From the NCBI RefSeq assembly GCF_044324875.1, contig NZ_CP172185.1: 64,000 nucleotides of DNA; one strand, 5' to 3'. The DNA is from Escherichia coli (GTDB lineage Bacteria > Pseudomonadota > Gammaproteobacteria > Enterobacterales > Enterobacteriaceae). The position numbers were made by a program. Below are positions 40,601-46,600 of this stretch, piece after piece; the stretch's first letter is position 1, and every line of letters begins with the position of its first letter.

Positions 40601-43600
40601 CAGATTGAATGAGCGCATGTGAGTTTATTACGTTGGCCTTGTACACGTTTTTTTTAGAACCACTGAGAGCAAGTTTGTAGTTTATGATGCTATTGGTCGT
40701 AATATGTTTCTTGAACTTTTGATCGTGGGTTTTTATCTCGTATTTTTCAGCATTTCTCGGTGTTGTATTGCGTCGATATTTTCTTTATTCCCGTTAATAT
40801 CATCTCGTCAGTGTCCATTCCTTTCATCACAATGCGTATCGTTAATAATCTGTTGTATCCATCCGCCTACAGCATGCCTGATAAATACCGTCTGTCAGTT
40901 ATTACCGTTTTAGATCTGATTATGAGCGAAGGTATTCATTCGCTGACAGAACTTAAAACGTCATTAACTTACAGGAGTTATCAGCATGCCTCAGTCTTAC
41001 ACACCAGACTGGTTTTTTACCGCCTTACTTGACCATCACATCGATCAAATGATGGCTCGCTATTCCTGTCTGCGGGCCTTACGGATGGATTTCTTCTACA
41101 GGAAAGAGACGCCTGATTTCTTACAACCTGATCACCGCTGGCTTGAATTGCAGTTGCGTATGCTGCTGGACCAGGTTGAACGGTTTGAAAATATGGTTGG
41201 TTTCTTCTGGGTGATTGAATGGACGGCTGATCATGGTTTTCATGCGCATGTGGTTTTCTGGATCGATCGTCAGAGGGTGAAAAAAATATATCCCTTTGCG
41301 GAGCGGATAACCGAATGCTGGCGGGCTATTACGTATAACTGTGGTTCGGCGCACCGCTGTACATACCAGCCGCATTATGCATACAACATCAACATTCCCG
41401 TGCGCCACAACGATCCTGAAAGCATCGATAATATTCGCGGTGCCCTGCATTATCTGGCGAAAGAAGAGCAAAAAGACGGACTGTGTGCATACGGCTGCAG
41501 CGAAGTGCCTGAACGTCCTGCTGCAGGGCGACCACGCAAGCTTCACGTCTGAAGCTTAAACCCTGAACCTCCGCACCTGGAAACAAGCCATCGGTAAAAA
41601 CTTACCGCATTGCTTAATGATGTGAACCGAAGTCAACGGAGTTCATTCACCCTGAATGTTCTTTCCTGATATTCCCGCTCAGCGTCGGTTCTTCACCTGT
41701 TCCATCAACCTCATCCGCAGCCTGTAACCCGTCAGCCCATCCATCCCCGGGCAGGACGCGTTGTGGGCTGCGCATAACGGAGCATATCCTATGAATGCTT
41801 TCCCTTATTTCGACGACAGCATGGCCCCCTTCTGGCCTTCGTATCAGAACAAAGTTATTGGCGTTCTTGACCGTGCGCTGCGTGAGCAGTCCGGCTCCCG
41901 GATACGTCGTATCCTGCTTCGTCTGCCGTGGGAACCCGATAACACCTTCAGCAGCCGCAGGACCTGGTTCGGTATGGCCTTTATTGAAACCGTCAGCGAC
42001 CTGATGAATGCAACCCCCGGACGTGACCTCTGCTGGCTCCTGACACGTCATCCTGAAAAGCCGGAATACCACGTGGTGCTGTGCGTCAGGCAGGAGTATT
42101 TCGACGGCCCTGAACTGGATCGGCTGATTCTGGATGCCTGGAGCAACGTGCTGGGCTTCGCCTCACCGGGGGAAGCGGCACCGTATCAGAAGCAGATTAC
42201 CCGGGATGTGCTGCTGGATCCCCGTTCACCGGACTGCGAGGAACTGTTCAGAGACCTGATCTGGGCGTTCAGTGATTTCGCACGTGATCGCCGGGGGGTA
42301 TACGATCCGGAAGCCCGTCACCTCGCCGGTAATCCCTGGTATCCCGGATCAGCAGGACGGCGCTGAACATCATGTTCAGCCGTTCCCCCGAACTTACACA
42401 TCCTTCCATTTCACCGAGGATATTCCGACCATGTTGAGCACAACAACATCCCACGACAGCGTATGGTTGCGTGACGACGATCCCCTGATCGACATGATTT
42501 TCATCACCAGTTTCACCGGCATGACCGACAAATGGTTCTACCAGCTGATGAGCGAAGGCAGGTTCCCGAAGCCCATCAAACTGGGCCGCAGCAGCCGCTG
42601 GTACAGAAGCGAAGTGGAGCAGTGGATGCAGCAGCGCATCGAAGCATCACGGGGAGAAGCATGAAAGGTATTGTGATACCGGTTCGCTGGCAATGTGCAA
42701 ACTGCCGGCGCTGGTATTGTGGTAATCCCCCCTGCCCCTGGTGCTGGCGACCTGCTGCACCGTCTGTCATTCCTCATCCTTCGCTGTAACAGGCATCGTA
42801 CCGGTGCCGGCGTGCTTTCCTGTGCACCGGCACCGGTTCAGAAACATGCAAAGAGAGCAAATCGTGCAGATAACCGAAACCGTACTTTCAGAGCCGGTGG
42901 AAATCCGGCGTTTTATTCAGCAGGCGGTGGATCACTGGCCGCGTCTGCTGGCCGTTCAGTTCACACTTCATTCAACAGGAGGAAATTGTGACGGGAGGCA
43001 GATTCATGCGTTTTACTGGGCATTTTACCGACAGCTGAATCAGCGAAGCCATACCGGATATCCGTTACTGCCGGTGGTGCTACGCTGGCTGCGGGAAACG
43101 ACAGAAAGCACAGACAGCACCGGGATACGCTGTCTGTTGCTGATCAGCCAGGATCTCATTTGCCCACCAGGATCCGGAATGACGTCTGATGACGCTGATT
43201 CGCACCTTGTGGCGTTACTGCAGCAGGCCGGCACCACACTCACGGCAGAAGGGCACTGTACGGTGGTATGCTGTTACAGGGTGGTGCGTGCAGCCACACC
43301 TGAAGGCGCTGAGTCACTCACGGCATTCAGAAACGCGTGCCTTTCGTTGGCCAGGCCCGTGATGGCCGGCATCATCCGCTAAGCAACATGATGTATCCCG
43401 GTTCAGCCGCTGAAACCGGCTCCTTCAGCAGCAGACCGGTATGAGGTTGTTCCCCCGGACATTCCTTCGTAGAATCCGTGCTGTGTTCGTACTTCCGGAG
43501 CCGTCGCCATGAAAATCTGTCTTTACCATACCCTGAATCCTGAAACGATCCCGGGCTATAAAAAGTTTGCGCAGGCCATTGAGGCAGATAATTTCGCGCA

Positions 43601-46600
43601 GGCGGATGTGCGTAAAATTGATACTAATCTCTACCGGGCACGCCTCAGTATCCGGGATCGGTTGTTGTTTTCACTTTACCGTTACCGTGGTGAGACGGTC
43701 TGCCTGGTACTGGAATATCTGCGTAACCATGCTTACCACACGTCACGTTTTCTGCGCAGGAATGTGGTGATCGACGAGGCGCGGCTGCAGCTGCAACCGG
43801 TGCCGGATCCGGCAGATGCAGACGCCGGTACACTGACGTATCTCAACCCCACTCACGGGCGTTTTCACTACCTGGATAAAATGCTCTCTTTTGATGATGA
43901 CCAGCAGGCGCTGTATGAACATCCGATGCCACTGGTGATTGTCGGCTCCGCCGGCAGCGGAAAGACGGCACTGTTACTGGAGAAAATGAAGCAGGCCGGG
44001 GGCGATATTCTGTATCTCAGCCTTTCGTCATTTCTGGTGGAAAAAGCCCGCACACTCTATCACGCATCTGGTGAAGAACATGACGGGCAGACCATTGATT
44101 TTCTGTCGCTGAGCGAGTTTCTGGAAACCCTGCGCATTCCGGAAGGGCGGGAGGTGACGTTCAGTGCGTTCAGCAACTGGCTGCCCCGCAACCGGACCAC
44201 CGCTGCACTGGGCTCTGGCCATACCCTGTATGAGGAATTTCGTGGTGTCATTGGTGCCGTTGCTTCTGACAACGGACCGCTGTCCCGGGAGGCGTATCTG
44301 TCGCTGGGAGTACGTCAGTCACTTTATGATATGGATGACCGTCCGGCGGTTTACGCCCTGTTTGAGCGTTATGTTGCATGGCTGAAACAGTCGCGTCAGT
44401 ATGACAGTAATCTTCTCAGCCACCAGTACCTGCCACTGGCCGGGCACCGTTATGATGTGGTTTTTGTGGATGAAGTGCAGGATATGACGCCTGTGCAGCT
44501 GCGGCTGGTTCTGAAAACCCTGCGTCATCCCGGTCAGTTTGTACTCTGCGGCGATGCCAATCAGATAGTTCATCCCAGCTTTTTTCCTGGAGTGCCCTCA
44601 AAAGCCTCTTTTTCCGGCAGCAACAGAACGAGGCTGCCGTGAATATTCTGCAGGCGAATTACCGTAACGGGCACCATGTCACCGCACTGGCTAACCGGCT
44701 GCTCAGACTTAAACTGGCCCGGTTCAGTGCCATTGACCGGGAAAGTCACCATTTTGTCAGAAGCTGCGGGCAGACGGAAGGCACCATCAGGCTGCTGGAA
44801 GACCGGGAAGCCACCCGCCATGAGCTGAACAGCAAAACCTCCCGCTCAAACCGTGTGGCGGTGATTGTGATGCAGCCGGAGCAGAAAGCACAGGCCCGGC
44901 GCTGGTTCAGTACACCGCTGGTTTTTTCGGTTCAGGAAGTGAAGGGGCTCGAGTACGAAACGGTGATCCTGTACAACATGGTCAGCAGTACCCGTAAGGC
45001 ATTTGATGATATCTGCGAAGGGATCAATCCGGCAGATCCTGAGGGTGAGGTGCGTTATGCCCACCCCCGGGACCGGCAGGATCGTTCAGCAGAAATCTAC
45101 AGGTTTTTCACCAACGCGCTGTATGTTGCGCTCACCCGTGCCACGCACAACGTGTACCTTGTTGAGCAGGAGGTGGCCCATCCGCTGTGGTCCCTGCTGG
45201 CCCTCACGCATCATGAAACGCAACTGGAGCTGCAGGAAGAGATTTCCAGCCGTGATGAGTGGCAGAAAACCGCTCACCTGCTGGAAAAACAGGGGAAGCA
45301 GGAGCAGGTGGACACCATCCGCAGTATGATCCTGCAGGAGTCAGAAGTACCGTGGCAGATCTTCAGCGCAGAGGATGCGCGGCAGTGGAAACAGCAGATC
45401 CTCAGCGGGACGGCGGACAAAGCCACGAAACTGCAGGCGCTGGAATACAGCCTGATTTATTCCCTGTTTCCGCTGTATAATGCGCTGTACCGGGAAGATT
45501 TTAAGCCCACAAGGCAGCCCCGGACCCGGAGCCAGCAGTTACTGGAGCAGAAGTATTTTCGTCCCTACTCAGTGAATAATCCGGTCGCCGTGCTGAGGGA
45601 TATTGAACGTTATGGTGTTGATCACCGCTCGCCGTTTAATCTTACGCCGCTGATGCTGGCAGCCCGGGCGGGGAACACGGCGCTGGTTCAGTTGCTGCTG
45701 GATCGTGGTGCCGATCCCACGCTGACGGCAAATGACGGGCTGGCGGCGTATCATCATGTTCTGTCAGCGGCGGTCAGCACGCCCCGTTATGCGCAGCAGA
45801 AGGGGGCACAACTCTATGCCTTGCCGGGACCGGAAAGCCTGTCACTGCAGGTGGAAGGGCGGCTTGTCAAACTGGACAACCGGCAGATGGCAATGTTTCT
45901 GGTGATCCTGATGCAGGCATTGTTTTACACGCATCTGGGGAATGCTCTGGTTTTTTCAGAAGCCTTCAGTGCGGCACGACTGGCAGAGTGTGTCGCCCAC
46001 TTTCCTGAAGCCCTGCTGCCGGAACGCCGCAGGCGGAGGAATTATATCAGCAGCCAGCTTTCTCAGCATGAAGTTAACAGCAAGAACCCTTATGGAAAAA
46101 AGCTGTTTCTGCGACTGAGGCATGGTCAGTATATTCTTAATCCGGGGCTGAAAATCAGGCAGAATGACGGGTGGTACCCGGTTTACGACTTGCAGTCACC
46201 GGAAGATCTCGGTCATGATTTACAGACGTATCTGCAGGACATGCCCCCGTACATTCTGGAGATTCTGGGGGGCAGGAAGGATGTTTACGAACAAAGTAAG
46301 GGGTCTGTCGGATACTGGGTGGCGATGATCCGCCGTCACAGTGGTGAGCCGTAATGTTCCGCACTGCGCGGATATCCTGAAACATGTTCTGTTAATGTTA
46401 CCTGGTTCAGAAGAGATAAACAGTGAGCAGCAGGAAAGAGAAAAATACGCCCACGCCGCATGATGCCGCCTTCAGGGCGTTTATGGCCTCAGCAGAGGTG
46501 GCCCGTGATTTTGTTGAACTGCATCTTCCGGCGGAATACCGGCAGTTGTGTGATCTGTCGACGCTGCGGCTGGAGCCCTGTACCTTTGTGGACCAGGATC

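What the first reader, a model, noticed from the sequence alone, without database searches (positions are those of the whole stretch)
43509..46354. UvrD-like helicase fused to ankyrin repeats, split into two ORFs at a T-tract
The two ORFs together encode a ~940 aa SF1 helicase (motifs I-VI) with an unassigned ~130 aa N-terminal domain, an ankyrin-repeat block and a ~250 aa C-terminal domain. The first ORF stops 40 bp after a T6 run (44580-44585) and the second frame is open across the junction, so this is a frameshifted gene, a homopolymer sequencing error, or programmed slippage. A helicase-ankyrin architecture sitting after alpA in a P4-like module is where anti-phage systems are commonly found, and I do not recognise it as a named system.
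Basis: partly seen in the sequence, partly recalled or inferred. Interest (0 to 1): 0.62.

Follow-up and report, generated by a model that had tools for sequence, protein, structure and literature searches.

The report
Frameshifted toxin-fold helicase–ankyrin gene
The two ORFs are one 948-residue accessory E. coli gene broken by a real, inherited loss of one T in a T7 run; intact copies encode an uncharacterised protein that joins a RelE/YoeB-type toxin fold to a UvrD-like helicase and an ankyrin module, a plausible but untested single-gene defence protein.

Summary
ORF1 (43509-44642) and ORF2 (44639-46354, frame open from 44474) are two halves of one gene, separated by a 1-nt deletion in a T run (T6 at 44580-44585). 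A 98%-identical intact E. coli allele has T7 at this site.

The T6 state is a real, inherited mutation. Eight independent assemblies carry it, and the exact ORF1 product is on record on 73 contigs. It is not a sequencing error. Nothing supports programmed slippage: thousands of homologues are single ORFs, and there is no significant downstream RNA structure.

The lesion removes the second half of helicase motif III, including three family-invariant residues. This copy is most likely a recent pseudogene.

The intact family (about 950 aa, about 600 clusters at 50% identity) is accessory and mobile. It occurs in 2% of complete E. coli genomes, including ST131, on Shigella pINV plasmids, and scattered across other Gammaproteobacteria, often beside restriction-modification or toxin-antitoxin genes.

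A defence role is plausible but unproven.

The parts
42431..42664 (+). alpA-type HTH regulator gene of the island, two genes upstream
   Evidence: PGAP 'helix-turn-helix transcriptional regulator' in LH50-c. Pfam Phage_AlpA on the identical module in L022-L027.
42804..43382 (+). Upstream neighbour, UCP030791 / 'inovirus-type Gp2' family. It recurs next to the helicase gene in enterobacterial islands.
   Evidence: Pfam PF27752 on the same gene in L022-L027, L006 and L012. PGAP name in L002. Absent next to distant homologues.
43497..43500 (+). GGAG ribosome-binding site, 8 nt before the ATG
   Evidence: Read from the sequence. The ATG at 43509 is the conserved start (MKICLYHT...) of all close homologues.
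43509..44642 (+). ORF1, 377 aa: N-terminal domain, helicase domains 1A/1B up to motif III, then 18 out-of-frame codons and a stop
   Evidence: The exact product P0121 is on record on 73 contigs.
43509..43748 (+). N-terminal domain (aa 1-80) with a RelE/YoeB/HigB toxin fold. Conserved polar residues: K36, R43, R51, E69, H74, Y76, S79, R80.
43896..45172 (+). SF1A UvrD-like helicase core (aa about 130-555), interrupted by the frameshift
   Evidence: Pfam AAA_19, UvrD-helicase, UvrD_C and UvrD_C_2. Foldseek matches to FBH1, PcrA, UvrD, Rep and HelD, E 1e-11 to 1e-8.
43944..43967 (+). Walker A motif GSAGSGKT (aa 146-153)
   Evidence: Read from the sequence. Invariant in 69 homologues.
44469..44483 (+). 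Motif II, DEVQD (aa 321-325)
   Evidence: Read from the sequence. D321, E322 and Q324 are invariant.
44580..44585 (+). T6 run, the site of the 1-nt deletion (T7 in the intact allele)
   Evidence: Direct comparison with L006-L009 and with L002. T6 in all 8 split alleles examined.
44586..44642 (+). Out-of-frame tail of ORF1 (PGVPSKASFSGSNRTRLP plus stop). It replaces SWSALKSLFFRQQQNEAA, which holds the invariant residues W361, K365 and F368.
44639..44642 (+). GTGA overlap: the first start codon of ORF2 (GTG) overlaps the stop codon of ORF1 (TGA). A GAGG lies 5 nt upstream (44630-44633).
   Evidence: Read from the sequence. The same bases are ordinary coding sequence in the intact allele, so this is a by-product and not an evolved signal.
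44639..46354 (+). ORF2, 571 aa: helicase domain 2A, helical linker, ankyrin module and C-terminal domain. Its frame is open from 44474.
   Evidence: The exact product P0122 is on 6 contigs and the V224A variant P0123 on 47.
45611..45775 (+). Ankyrin repeat module (aa 702-756 by sequence; flanking degenerate hairpins in the model)
45830..46351 (+). C-terminal alpha/beta domain (aa about 775-948), fold unassigned, with invariant R841, Y846, E855, R869, Y875 and W889
46423..47412 (+). Rpn-family recombination-promoting nuclease gene, the downstream neighbour in several island variants
   Evidence: NCBIfam TIGR01784, 175.7 bits against a cut-off of 52.1. The same neighbour is seen in L006-L009, EC958 and L022-L027.

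Best explanation
This locus is a recently inactivated copy of a single accessory gene. Loss of one T from a T7 run (now T6, 44580-44585) shifts the frame just after the GDANQ part of helicase motif III. That yields a 377-aa N-terminal fragment and leaves the remaining 571 codons in the -1 frame. The mutation is real and inherited together with its island module (shown).

The intact 948-aa protein consists of:
- a RelE/YoeB/HigB-fold domain (shown by structure comparison);
- a complete SF1A UvrD-like ATPase/helicase (shown);
- a helical linker;
- a short ankyrin module (shown);
- a conserved C-terminal domain of unknown fold.

Inferred function: the family is a stand-alone, horizontally mobile conflict or defence protein. 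The helicase motor and the ankyrin/C-terminal module would sense a foreign nucleic acid or protein. The RelE-like domain, with its conserved Arg/Glu/His/Tyr residues, would act as effector, probably on RNA or at the ribosome, and would be held inactive within the same polypeptide because no antitoxin gene accompanies it.

My probabilities for the separate steps:
- genuine inherited frameshift: 0.95
- this copy is non-functional: 0.75
- the family has a defence or conflict role: 0.4
- the RelE-like domain is a catalytic RNase effector: 0.3
For: Frameshift:
- The intact sibling allele differs at 49 of 2847 nt and has T7. More distant intact E. coli alleles read TTTTTCTCA at this site.
- The in-silico repair reproduces the junction of intact proteins exactly.
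- T6 is present in LH50-c, where PGAP flags the gene as 'frameshifted', and in six further assemblies with different flanks. The exact ORF1 protein is on 73 contigs.

Loss of function:
- The lesion deletes the invariant residues W361, K365 and F368.
- Only 2 variable sites occur among 8 split alleles, and both are non-synonymous.
- One split-allele variant carries W889R at an invariant position.
- Other truncated alleles exist: P0126, P0130, P0023 and P0037.

Architecture.

Accessory and mobile nature:
- The gene is in 116 of 5426 complete E. coli genomes.
- It is on 101 Shigella and 13 Escherichia plasmids.
- It lies in CP4-type islands with an integrase, CbtA/CbeA, RadC and an antirestriction gene.
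- It has no conserved partner gene across taxa.

Defence-like surroundings in distant taxa:
- type I restriction-modification plus AAA_15/21 plus BrxR;
- toxin-antitoxin clusters;
- HipA.

Conservation: purifying selection between alleles, dN/dS 0.15, and invariant ATPase residues.
Against: No experiment, and no named system, links this family to phage defence. PADLOC hits are partial GajB-type matches only.

The family is unusually well conserved for an arms-race gene, at about 50% identity over 95% of its length across distant taxa. Some copies sit among housekeeping genes such as nusA-infB.

The ORF1 product keeps the RelE-like domain yet is tolerated in many strains. This argues against a constitutively toxic domain.

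The split allele has spread widely (108 index blocks), so a residual or altered function cannot be excluded.
Confidence: 0.6

Rival explanations
1. The split is tolerated because it is leaky or reversible. Occasional -1 ribosomal slippage, or addition of a U during transcription at the T6 run, would restore the exact wild-type protein. Alternatively the T run acts as a phase-variation switch, or the two fragments, with ORF2 translated by coupling at the GTGA overlap, reassemble into an active enzyme.
For: ORF2 is in the -1 frame, and re-reading one T after AGC TTT TTT gives TCC TGG, which is the wild-type HPSFFSW. Both T7 and T6 alleles exist in nature. A GAGG lies 5 nt before the GTG that overlaps the ORF1 stop. 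The split allele is common and occurs with several different flanks.
Against: C TTT TTT is not a canonical X XXY YYZ heptamer. The downstream RNA folds no better than shuffled sequence, z = -0.83. A run of 6-7 T is short for efficient slippage or phase variation (established knowledge of slippage-prone tracts).

All 8 split alleles are T6. T7 is found only on a background that differs at 16 residues.

Thousands of homologues are single ORFs, and the closest other E. coli alleles interrupt the T run. Fragment reassembly would still lack the invariant W361, K365 and F368.
Confidence: 0.12
2. The frameshift is a homopolymer sequencing or assembly error, and the gene is intact in the real genome.
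For: The lesion lies in a homopolymer, the commonest site of indel errors in long-read assemblies (general knowledge).
Against: The identical T6 state is seen in the window, in the complete genome of LH50-c, and in six further NCBI assemblies from different samples. The exact frameshifted ORF1 product is recorded on 73 contigs from NCBI, ENA and Logan.
Confidence: 0.02
3. The family is not a defence protein. It is the replication or transfer helicase of the integrative island, working with the neighbouring YagK/YfjJ/'inovirus Gp2'-type rolling-circle-initiator-like proteins, in the way Rep and PcrA serve rolling-circle replicons.
For: In Enterobacteriaceae the gene always lies in the YfjI (DUF3987)-AlpA-YagK/YfjJ module, directly after a UCP030791/'Gp2-type' gene. 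The core is most similar to PcrA, Rep and UvrD.
Against: Outside Enterobacteriaceae the gene stands alone, with no Gp2-like, AlpA or integrase neighbours. On Shigella pINV it lies next to the shf operon without that module. A RelE-fold domain and an ankyrin module are not features of replicative helicases. No phage among 50,697 genomes encodes a homologue. Islands carrying the broken gene persist and spread.
Confidence: 0.13
4. The family is a cellular RNA- or translation-surveillance or DNA-repair helicase. It would be housekeeping in some marine Gammaproteobacteria and acquired secondarily by mobile elements in enterics. The RelE-like domain would serve only to dock on ribosomes or RNA.
For: The family shows high, uniform conservation at about 50% identity. 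Some copies have chromosomal, non-island contexts, for example beside nusA-infB in Endozoicomonas. RelE-family folds bind the ribosomal A site (established knowledge). Some long family members are fused to DUF1186 plus a SEC-C motif, and a separate DUF1186/SEC-C gene lies nearby in L014 and L016.
Against: Distribution is patchy, at 2% of E. coli genomes. The gene is located on plasmids and islands. It is readily lost or broken. No equivalog model of a housekeeping helicase is approached.
Confidence: 0.13

Closest known systems
UvrD / PcrA / Rep (SF1A DNA helicases; also FBH1, HelD, AdnAB)
   Same: The core has the same fold and the full motif I-VI set. These are the best structural matches, at Foldseek E 1e-11 to 1e-8, and Pfam finds UvrD-helicase, AAA_19 and UvrD_C.
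   Different: Sequence identity is only 10-18%. NCBIfam scores are 15-34 bits against cut-offs of 419-965. The core is compact, at about 430 aa. The protein adds a RelE-fold N-domain, an ankyrin module and an unknown C-terminal domain. It is accessory and mobile rather than core.
GajB of the Gabija defence system
   Same: GajB is a UvrD-like SF1 helicase used in anti-phage defence. It gives the best PADLOC hits, with E down to 1e-11, and a Foldseek match to the Gabija complex 8tk1_F.
   Different: The matches cover only stretches of about 90 residues around motifs II-III or V-VI. No GajA (OLD-type ATPase/TOPRIM nuclease) gene is adjacent in any locus examined. The flanking domains differ.
Nhi (nuclease-helicase immunity) and similar single-polypeptide effector-helicase defence proteins (Hna, AbiO)
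   Same: The logic would be the same if the inference is right: one polypeptide combining an effector domain with a helicase that senses phage replication. Weak PADLOC hits to Nhi (1.2e-6) and AbiO (3.5e-7) support a loose relation.
   Different: The hits cover only 56-180 residues of the P-loop core. The effector candidate here has a RelE fold and is not a nuclease domain. Ankyrin and the C-terminal domain are absent from those systems. No function has been tested.
RelE / YoeB / HigB type II toxins (ribosome-dependent mRNA interferases)
   Different: No sequence-level similarity is detectable. The domain is fused to a protein of about 870 further residues rather than being a free toxin of about 90 aa. 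There is no adjacent antitoxin gene. Catalysis is untested.
RNase L (ankyrin sensor plus RNase effector) and UPF1 (SF1 helicase in translation-coupled RNA surveillance): analogies only
   Different: The similarity is confined to the generic ankyrin and SF1 folds. The domain order and the RNase type are different, and no evolutionary link is implied.

Membership tests
SF1A UvrD-like helicase superfamily | Conserved helicase motifs I, II, III, V and VI with Walker A Lys, DExx and an Arg finger | tested here: met
   GSAGSGKT, DEVQD, GDANQ...W, KGLEY and YVALTRA are present, with invariant K152, D321, E322 and R544 across 69 homologues. In the window copy motif III is cut by the frameshift.
SF1A UvrD-like helicase superfamily | Two RecA-like domains (1A, 2A) with the UvrD/PcrA/Rep fold | tested here: met
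   AF2 model with pLDDT 86 and pTM 0.86. Foldseek top hits are FBH1, PcrA, UvrD and Rep at probability 1.00.
Housekeeping UvrD / Rep / RecB / HelD equivalogs | Score at or above the curated NCBIfam cut-off | tested here: not met
   Best score is 34.4 bits against 696 for RecB. HelD scores 28.6 against 419, Rep 20.2 against 951, and UvrD 15.1 against 965.
Gabija (GajA + GajB) | Full-length match to a GajB model | tested here: not met
   Hits cover only about 75-150 residues of models 369-647 positions long, with E 1e-11 at best.
Gabija (GajA + GajB) | Adjacent gajA (OLD-family ATPase/TOPRIM nuclease) gene | tested here: not met
   The neighbours are a UCP030791/Gp2-type gene and an Rpn gene. 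No PADLOC hit was found in 8 island neighbours.
Nhi | Nhi HMM match over the nuclease and helicase domains | tested here: not met
   A single 56-residue stretch (aa 312-367), E 1.2e-6.
RelE/ParE toxin superfamily | RelE-type alpha/beta fold | tested here: met
RelE/ParE toxin superfamily | Match to a sequence model of the superfamily | tested here: not met
   No Pfam, NCBIfam, PHROGs or PDB-sequence hit for 8-27 N-domain sequences. hhalign against single RelE and YoeB sequences gave nothing.
RelE/ParE toxin superfamily (as a type II toxin-antitoxin module) | Small free-standing toxin with an adjacent antitoxin gene | tested here: not met
   The domain is fused to a helicase in the full-length members. 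No conserved small neighbour occurs across taxa.
RelE/ParE toxin superfamily | Ribosome-dependent mRNA cleavage, or a demonstrated catalytic site | not testable with these tools
   Only the conservation of K36, R43, R51, E69, H74, Y76, S79 and R80 can be shown, and it holds down to about 27% identity.
Ankyrin repeat proteins | Ankyrin repeat sequence signature | tested here: met
   Pfam Ank_5 4e-07 and Ank 3.5e-06 at aa 702-756. Between 18 and 20 of 22 homologues match. Only one canonical repeat region is detected.
Programmed -1 frameshift genes (dnaX, IS3-type) | Canonical slippery heptamer plus a downstream stimulatory structure, conserved among homologues | tested here: not met
   The site is C TTT TTT. 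The downstream fold has z = -0.83. Homologues are single ORFs, and the tract is interrupted in other E. coli alleles.
Phase-variable contingency locus | Tract length varies among otherwise identical alleles | tested here: not met
   All 8 split alleles are T6, with at most 2 SNPs among them. T7 occurs only on a background differing at 49 nt. The repaired protein on the window's background is not in the collection.
Anti-phage defence system (generic) | Protection against phage when expressed | not testable with these tools
   Only context is available: mobile islands, and restriction-modification, toxin-antitoxin or BrxR neighbours in some taxa.

The most novel reading that the evidence does not exclude
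Intact members of this family would be an undescribed class of single-polypeptide immune or surveillance protein. A RelE/YoeB-fold domain, an mRNA interferase or ribosome-docking module, would be covalently coupled to an SF1A helicase motor and an ankyrin/C-terminal sensor. Detection of a phage nucleic acid or protein would then trigger translation-targeted growth arrest without a separate antitoxin. The family is carried by ST131 E. coli and by the Shigella virulence plasmid.
Probability: 0.25. Interest if true: 0.75.

Novelty: new variant of a known kind. Interest (0 to 1): 0.48.

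Why it matters
For this window the answer is ordinary. It is a recent pseudogene made by a homopolymer deletion, and genome annotators should treat the two ORFs as one broken gene.

The gene family behind it is more interesting:
- It is large, conserved and horizontally mobile.
- It is unnamed in the resources checked here (Pfam, NCBIfam, PADLOC v2.0.0, PHROGs) and appears in none of the papers found.
- It is present in pandemic ST131 E. coli and on essentially all sampled Shigella virulence plasmids.
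- It combines a toxin-type fold with a helicase and a protein-recognition module in one chain.

If it is a defence or abortive-infection protein, it would add a new effector-sensor combination and a case of a RelE-fold domain controlled inside its own polypeptide rather than by an antitoxin. The natural T6 and T7 alleles provide a ready-made loss-of-function control.

Tried and rejected
- Sequencing error: rejected.
- Programmed frameshift or stimulatory RNA: no significant structure and no Rfam family at the site. The only Rfam hit in the window is an IS3-type ALIL pseudoknot at 33631-33747.
- tRNA integration site in the window: none found.
- Longer N-terminal extension (PGAP TTG start, 970 aa in some records): rejected as the true start. 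In the window that frame hits a stop before the ATG, and all close homologues share MKICLYHT after a GGAG.
- Named defence systems: PADLOC gave only partial GajB, Nhi, AbiO and DRT-helicase hits, and nothing on 8 neighbouring genes.
- Sequence routes to the N-domain all failed: PDB profile search (spurious BurrH and BET5 hits), NCBIfam and PHROGs, and hhalign against E. coli YoeB and RelE.
- C-terminal domain: no fold or family found.
- Phage origin: no tblastn hit in 50,697 phage genomes.
- Literature: five full-text searches and three papers opened gave no description of this protein. The pINV copy is not discussed in the two pINV papers opened.
- K-12 remnant (the yjhR idea, from memory): no DNA-level match outside the 116 genomes.
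- Caveat: the N+C construct used for the second structure is artificial, with the helicase core deleted. It was used only for per-domain fold recognition.

Full report
1. What is in the sequence

ORF1 runs 43509-44642 (377 aa) and ORF2 runs 44639-46354 (571 aa, first start GTG). ORF2 lies in the -1 frame relative to ORF1. That frame is already open from 44474, so the two frames overlap by 169 nt.

A T6 run occupies 44580-44585.

Inserting one T into the run joins the frames into a 948-aa protein. A GGAG lies 8 nt before the ATG at 43509. The longer TTG-initiated form annotated in some records (970 aa) is not conserved. In the window that upstream frame ends in a stop.

2. The lesion is a real T7-to-T6 deletion

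- The repaired protein reads ...GDANQIVHPSFFSWSALKSLFF..., exactly as in four intact 948-aa E. coli proteins of the same 90% cluster: P0124, P0125, P0128 and P0129.
- The DNA of one such allele (L006) differs from the window gene at 49 of 2847 positions and has AGCTTTTTTTCCTGG where the window has AGCTTTTTTCCTGG.
- More distant intact E. coli alleles (84% nt identity) read AGCTTTTTCTCATGG, so the uninterrupted T7 is specific to this lineage.
- The T6 state is present in the complete genome of strain LH50-c, which is 2 SNPs away and where PGAP flags the gene as 'frameshifted'. It is also present in six further NCBI assemblies.
- The exact ORF1 product is recorded on 73 contigs from NCBI, ENA and Logan. 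ORF2 variants are on 47, 6 and smaller numbers of contigs.

A sequencing artefact is therefore excluded.

3. Programmed slippage or phase variation?

A -1 slip after AGC TTT TTT would read TCC TGG and recreate the wild-type sequence, so low-level repair by ribosomal or transcriptional slippage is mechanically possible. Several results speak against a programmed or switching mechanism:
- The heptamer C TTT TTT is not canonical.
- The 80 nt downstream fold no better than shuffled sequence, z = -0.83.
- More than 4000 homologues are single ORFs.
- All eight split alleles are T6 and differ at only two sites, both non-synonymous.
- T7 is seen only on a background differing at 16 residues.

The ORF1 stop overlaps a GTG (GTGA, 44639-44642) preceded by GAGG, so the C-terminal fragment could be translated. 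These bases are ordinary coding sequence in the intact allele, so this is a by-product and not an evolved signal.

4. Consequence of the lesion

The shift falls right after GDANQ of motif III. It replaces SWSALKSLFFRQQQNEAA, which contains three residues invariant in 69 homologues: W361, K365 and F368. By analogy with PcrA and UvrD motif III, where the Trp after the GDxxQ element contacts single-stranded DNA (established knowledge, not tested here), this should uncouple the motor.

One split-lineage variant carries W889R at another invariant position. Other truncated members of the family occur in E. coli: P0126, P0130, P0023 and P0037.

Between the window allele and its intact sibling dN/dS is 0.15, which reflects selection before the break. 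I conclude that this is a recent pseudogene, with probability about 0.75. The main caveat is that the split allele is widespread and is found with different downstream and upstream flanks.

5. What the intact protein is

Pfam finds only weak UvrD-helicase, AAA_19, UvrD_C and UvrD_C_2 matches (aa 140-552) and ankyrin matches at aa 702-756. AlphaFold2 with 69 homologues gives a confident model, pLDDT 86 and pTM 0.86.

- Helicase core. The closest solved structures are FBH1, PcrA, UvrD, Rep, HelD and AdnAB, at E 1e-11 to 1e-8 and 9-18% identity. This makes it an SF1A helicase with no close characterised relative. NCBIfam scores are far below every equivalog cut-off.
- Conserved N-domain residues. 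K36, R43, R51, E69, H74, Y76, S79 and R80 are conserved even in members about 27-49% identical. By hand, D33, R51, H74 and Y76 fall where YoeB has E46, R65, H83 and Y84. This is an inference and not a superposition.
- Ankyrin module. It consists of one canonical repeat region flanked by degenerate helical hairpins.
- C-terminal domain. The last 175 residues or so form a well-predicted, highly conserved alpha/beta domain for which I found no fold or family.

6. Distribution and context

The N-domain profile finds 601 cluster representatives (E <= 1e-3) among 1.84 billion. Among the 150 listed, lengths are either about 900-1000 aa or short, and the short ones are likely fragments. The domain therefore appears essentially specific to this helicase family.

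Full-length homologues at about 50% identity occur in Halomonas, Nitrococcus, Endozoicomonas, Microbulbifer, Salmonella, Enterobacter and Serratia, and in metagenome bins labelled Lentisphaeria and Chloroflexi.

In E. coli the gene is accessory:
- It is in 116 of 5426 complete genomes, 98 of them near full length, including ST131 EC958, where it is intact.
- An intact copy (85% aa identity) lies on Shigella virulence plasmids such as pWR501, in 101 Shigella and 13 Escherichia plasmid records. [quoted passage not shown]
- No homologue exists in 50,697 phage genomes.

Enterobacterial chromosomal copies sit in CP4-type integrative islands. These carry an integrase, ParDE, CbtA/CbeA, RadC, an antirestriction gene, a YeeP-like GTPase, YfjI/DUF3987, AlpA and YagK/YfjJ. 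The gene usually lies directly after a UCP030791/'Gp2-type' gene and often before an Rpn nuclease gene.

Elsewhere the gene is solitary and its surroundings vary:
- type I restriction-modification plus AAA_15/21 ATPases, with BrxR at one of the two loci;
- a toxin-antitoxin-rich region;
- HipA;
- IS elements;
- housekeeping genes.

No partner gene is conserved across taxa.

7. Mechanism

Shown:
- the domain composition;
- conservation of the ATPase residues and of a polar cluster in the RelE-like domain;
- the accessory and mobile nature of the gene;
- the absence of a partner gene.

Inferred: a single-polypeptide conflict protein. The helicase, acting on a nucleic-acid cue, and the ankyrin/C-terminal module, acting on a protein cue, would control a RelE-like effector that acts on RNA or the ribosome, with autoinhibition replacing an antitoxin.

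Against a constitutively toxic N-domain: ORF1, which retains that domain, is tolerated in many strains.

Rival functions are an island replication helicase partnering the Gp2-like proteins, and a cellular surveillance or repair helicase. Both are weighed in the rival list. Neither fits the full distribution, but neither is excluded.

8. Comparison with known systems, and novelty

The protein fails the membership tests for:
- Gabija GajB (partial HMM match, no GajA);
- Nhi (56-residue match);
- housekeeping UvrD, Rep, RecB and HelD;
- a canonical type II toxin-antitoxin module (no antitoxin, no sequence match).

It shares the fold of SF1A helicases, of RelE-family toxins and of ankyrin repeats.

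I found no paper describing it. PADLOC-DB v2.0.0 dates from 2023, and later catalogues could not be queried, so the claim of being unnamed is limited to the resources used here.

Verdict:
- The locus itself is an ordinary recent pseudogene.
- The family is an uncharacterised new variant of the effector-plus-helicase single-gene theme, and is worth an experimental test using the intact ST131, pINV or P0124 alleles.

Noticed in passing
window 33631-33747 (+): Rfam ALIL pseudoknot (RF01497, 116 bits), the frameshift element of an IS3-family transposase. The surrounding 33294-34609 is 95% identical to an IS copy on Shigella pWR501 (L020 9612-10923). The IS lies in a stretch of the window (33185-34664) that does not align with LH50-c.
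   Followed up: partly
window 46423-47412 (+): An Rpn-family recombination-promoting nuclease gene lies immediately downstream of the helicase gene. The same helicase-Rpn pairing recurs in L006-L009, in L022-L027, and in ST131 EC958, where IS21 disrupts it. The pairing is absent from L002, pINV and distant taxa.
   Followed up: partly
window 42804-43382 (+): A UCP030791 (PF27752) / 'inovirus-type Gp2' gene lies directly upstream of the helicase gene. A member of this family neighbours the helicase in every enterobacterial island variant seen (once on the opposite strand, in L012), but not outside Enterobacteriaceae.
   Followed up: partly
window 47734-47886 (-), 47886-48206 (+), 48318-49603 (-): A run of gene remnants follows the Rpn gene: a RelE/StbE toxin C-terminal fragment, an IS66 transposase fragment, a sitB fragment and an intact sitA. 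This marks a mosaic, decaying island edge. Collinearity with LH50-c ends at about 49864.
   Followed up: partly
L020 (Shigella flexneri pWR501, NC_002698.1) 6067-8979: An intact homologue (85% aa identity) is conserved on the Shigella/EIEC virulence plasmid, transcribed divergently from the shf-rfbU(capU)-virK-msbB2 operon. In E. coli LH50-c a shf/capU/lpxM-like block lies about 7 kb downstream of the broken helicase gene (L001 22130-26923), which suggests a shared ancestral segment.
   Followed up: partly
A5 members (proteins of 1066-1580 aa); L014 15873-16922 (-); L016 15710-16765 (-): Two long family members carry a fused DUF1186 plus SEC-C motif region. A separate DUF1186/SEC-C gene lies two to three genes downstream of the helicase in two Endozoicomonas-like genomes. 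Fusion plus neighbourhood hints at a functional partner.
   Followed up: no
L027 1196-1900 (-): In one carrier of the split allele a TIR_2-domain gene occupies the position where other islands have YfjI/DUF3987. The module therefore exchanges defence-like cargo.
   Followed up: no
window 45309: The window carries T (Val601) where LH50-c, five of the six other split alleles examined (L024 shares the window's T) and the intact sibling carry C (Ala601). The window's variant is the minority form: P0122 is on 6 contigs against 47 for P0123.
   Followed up: yes
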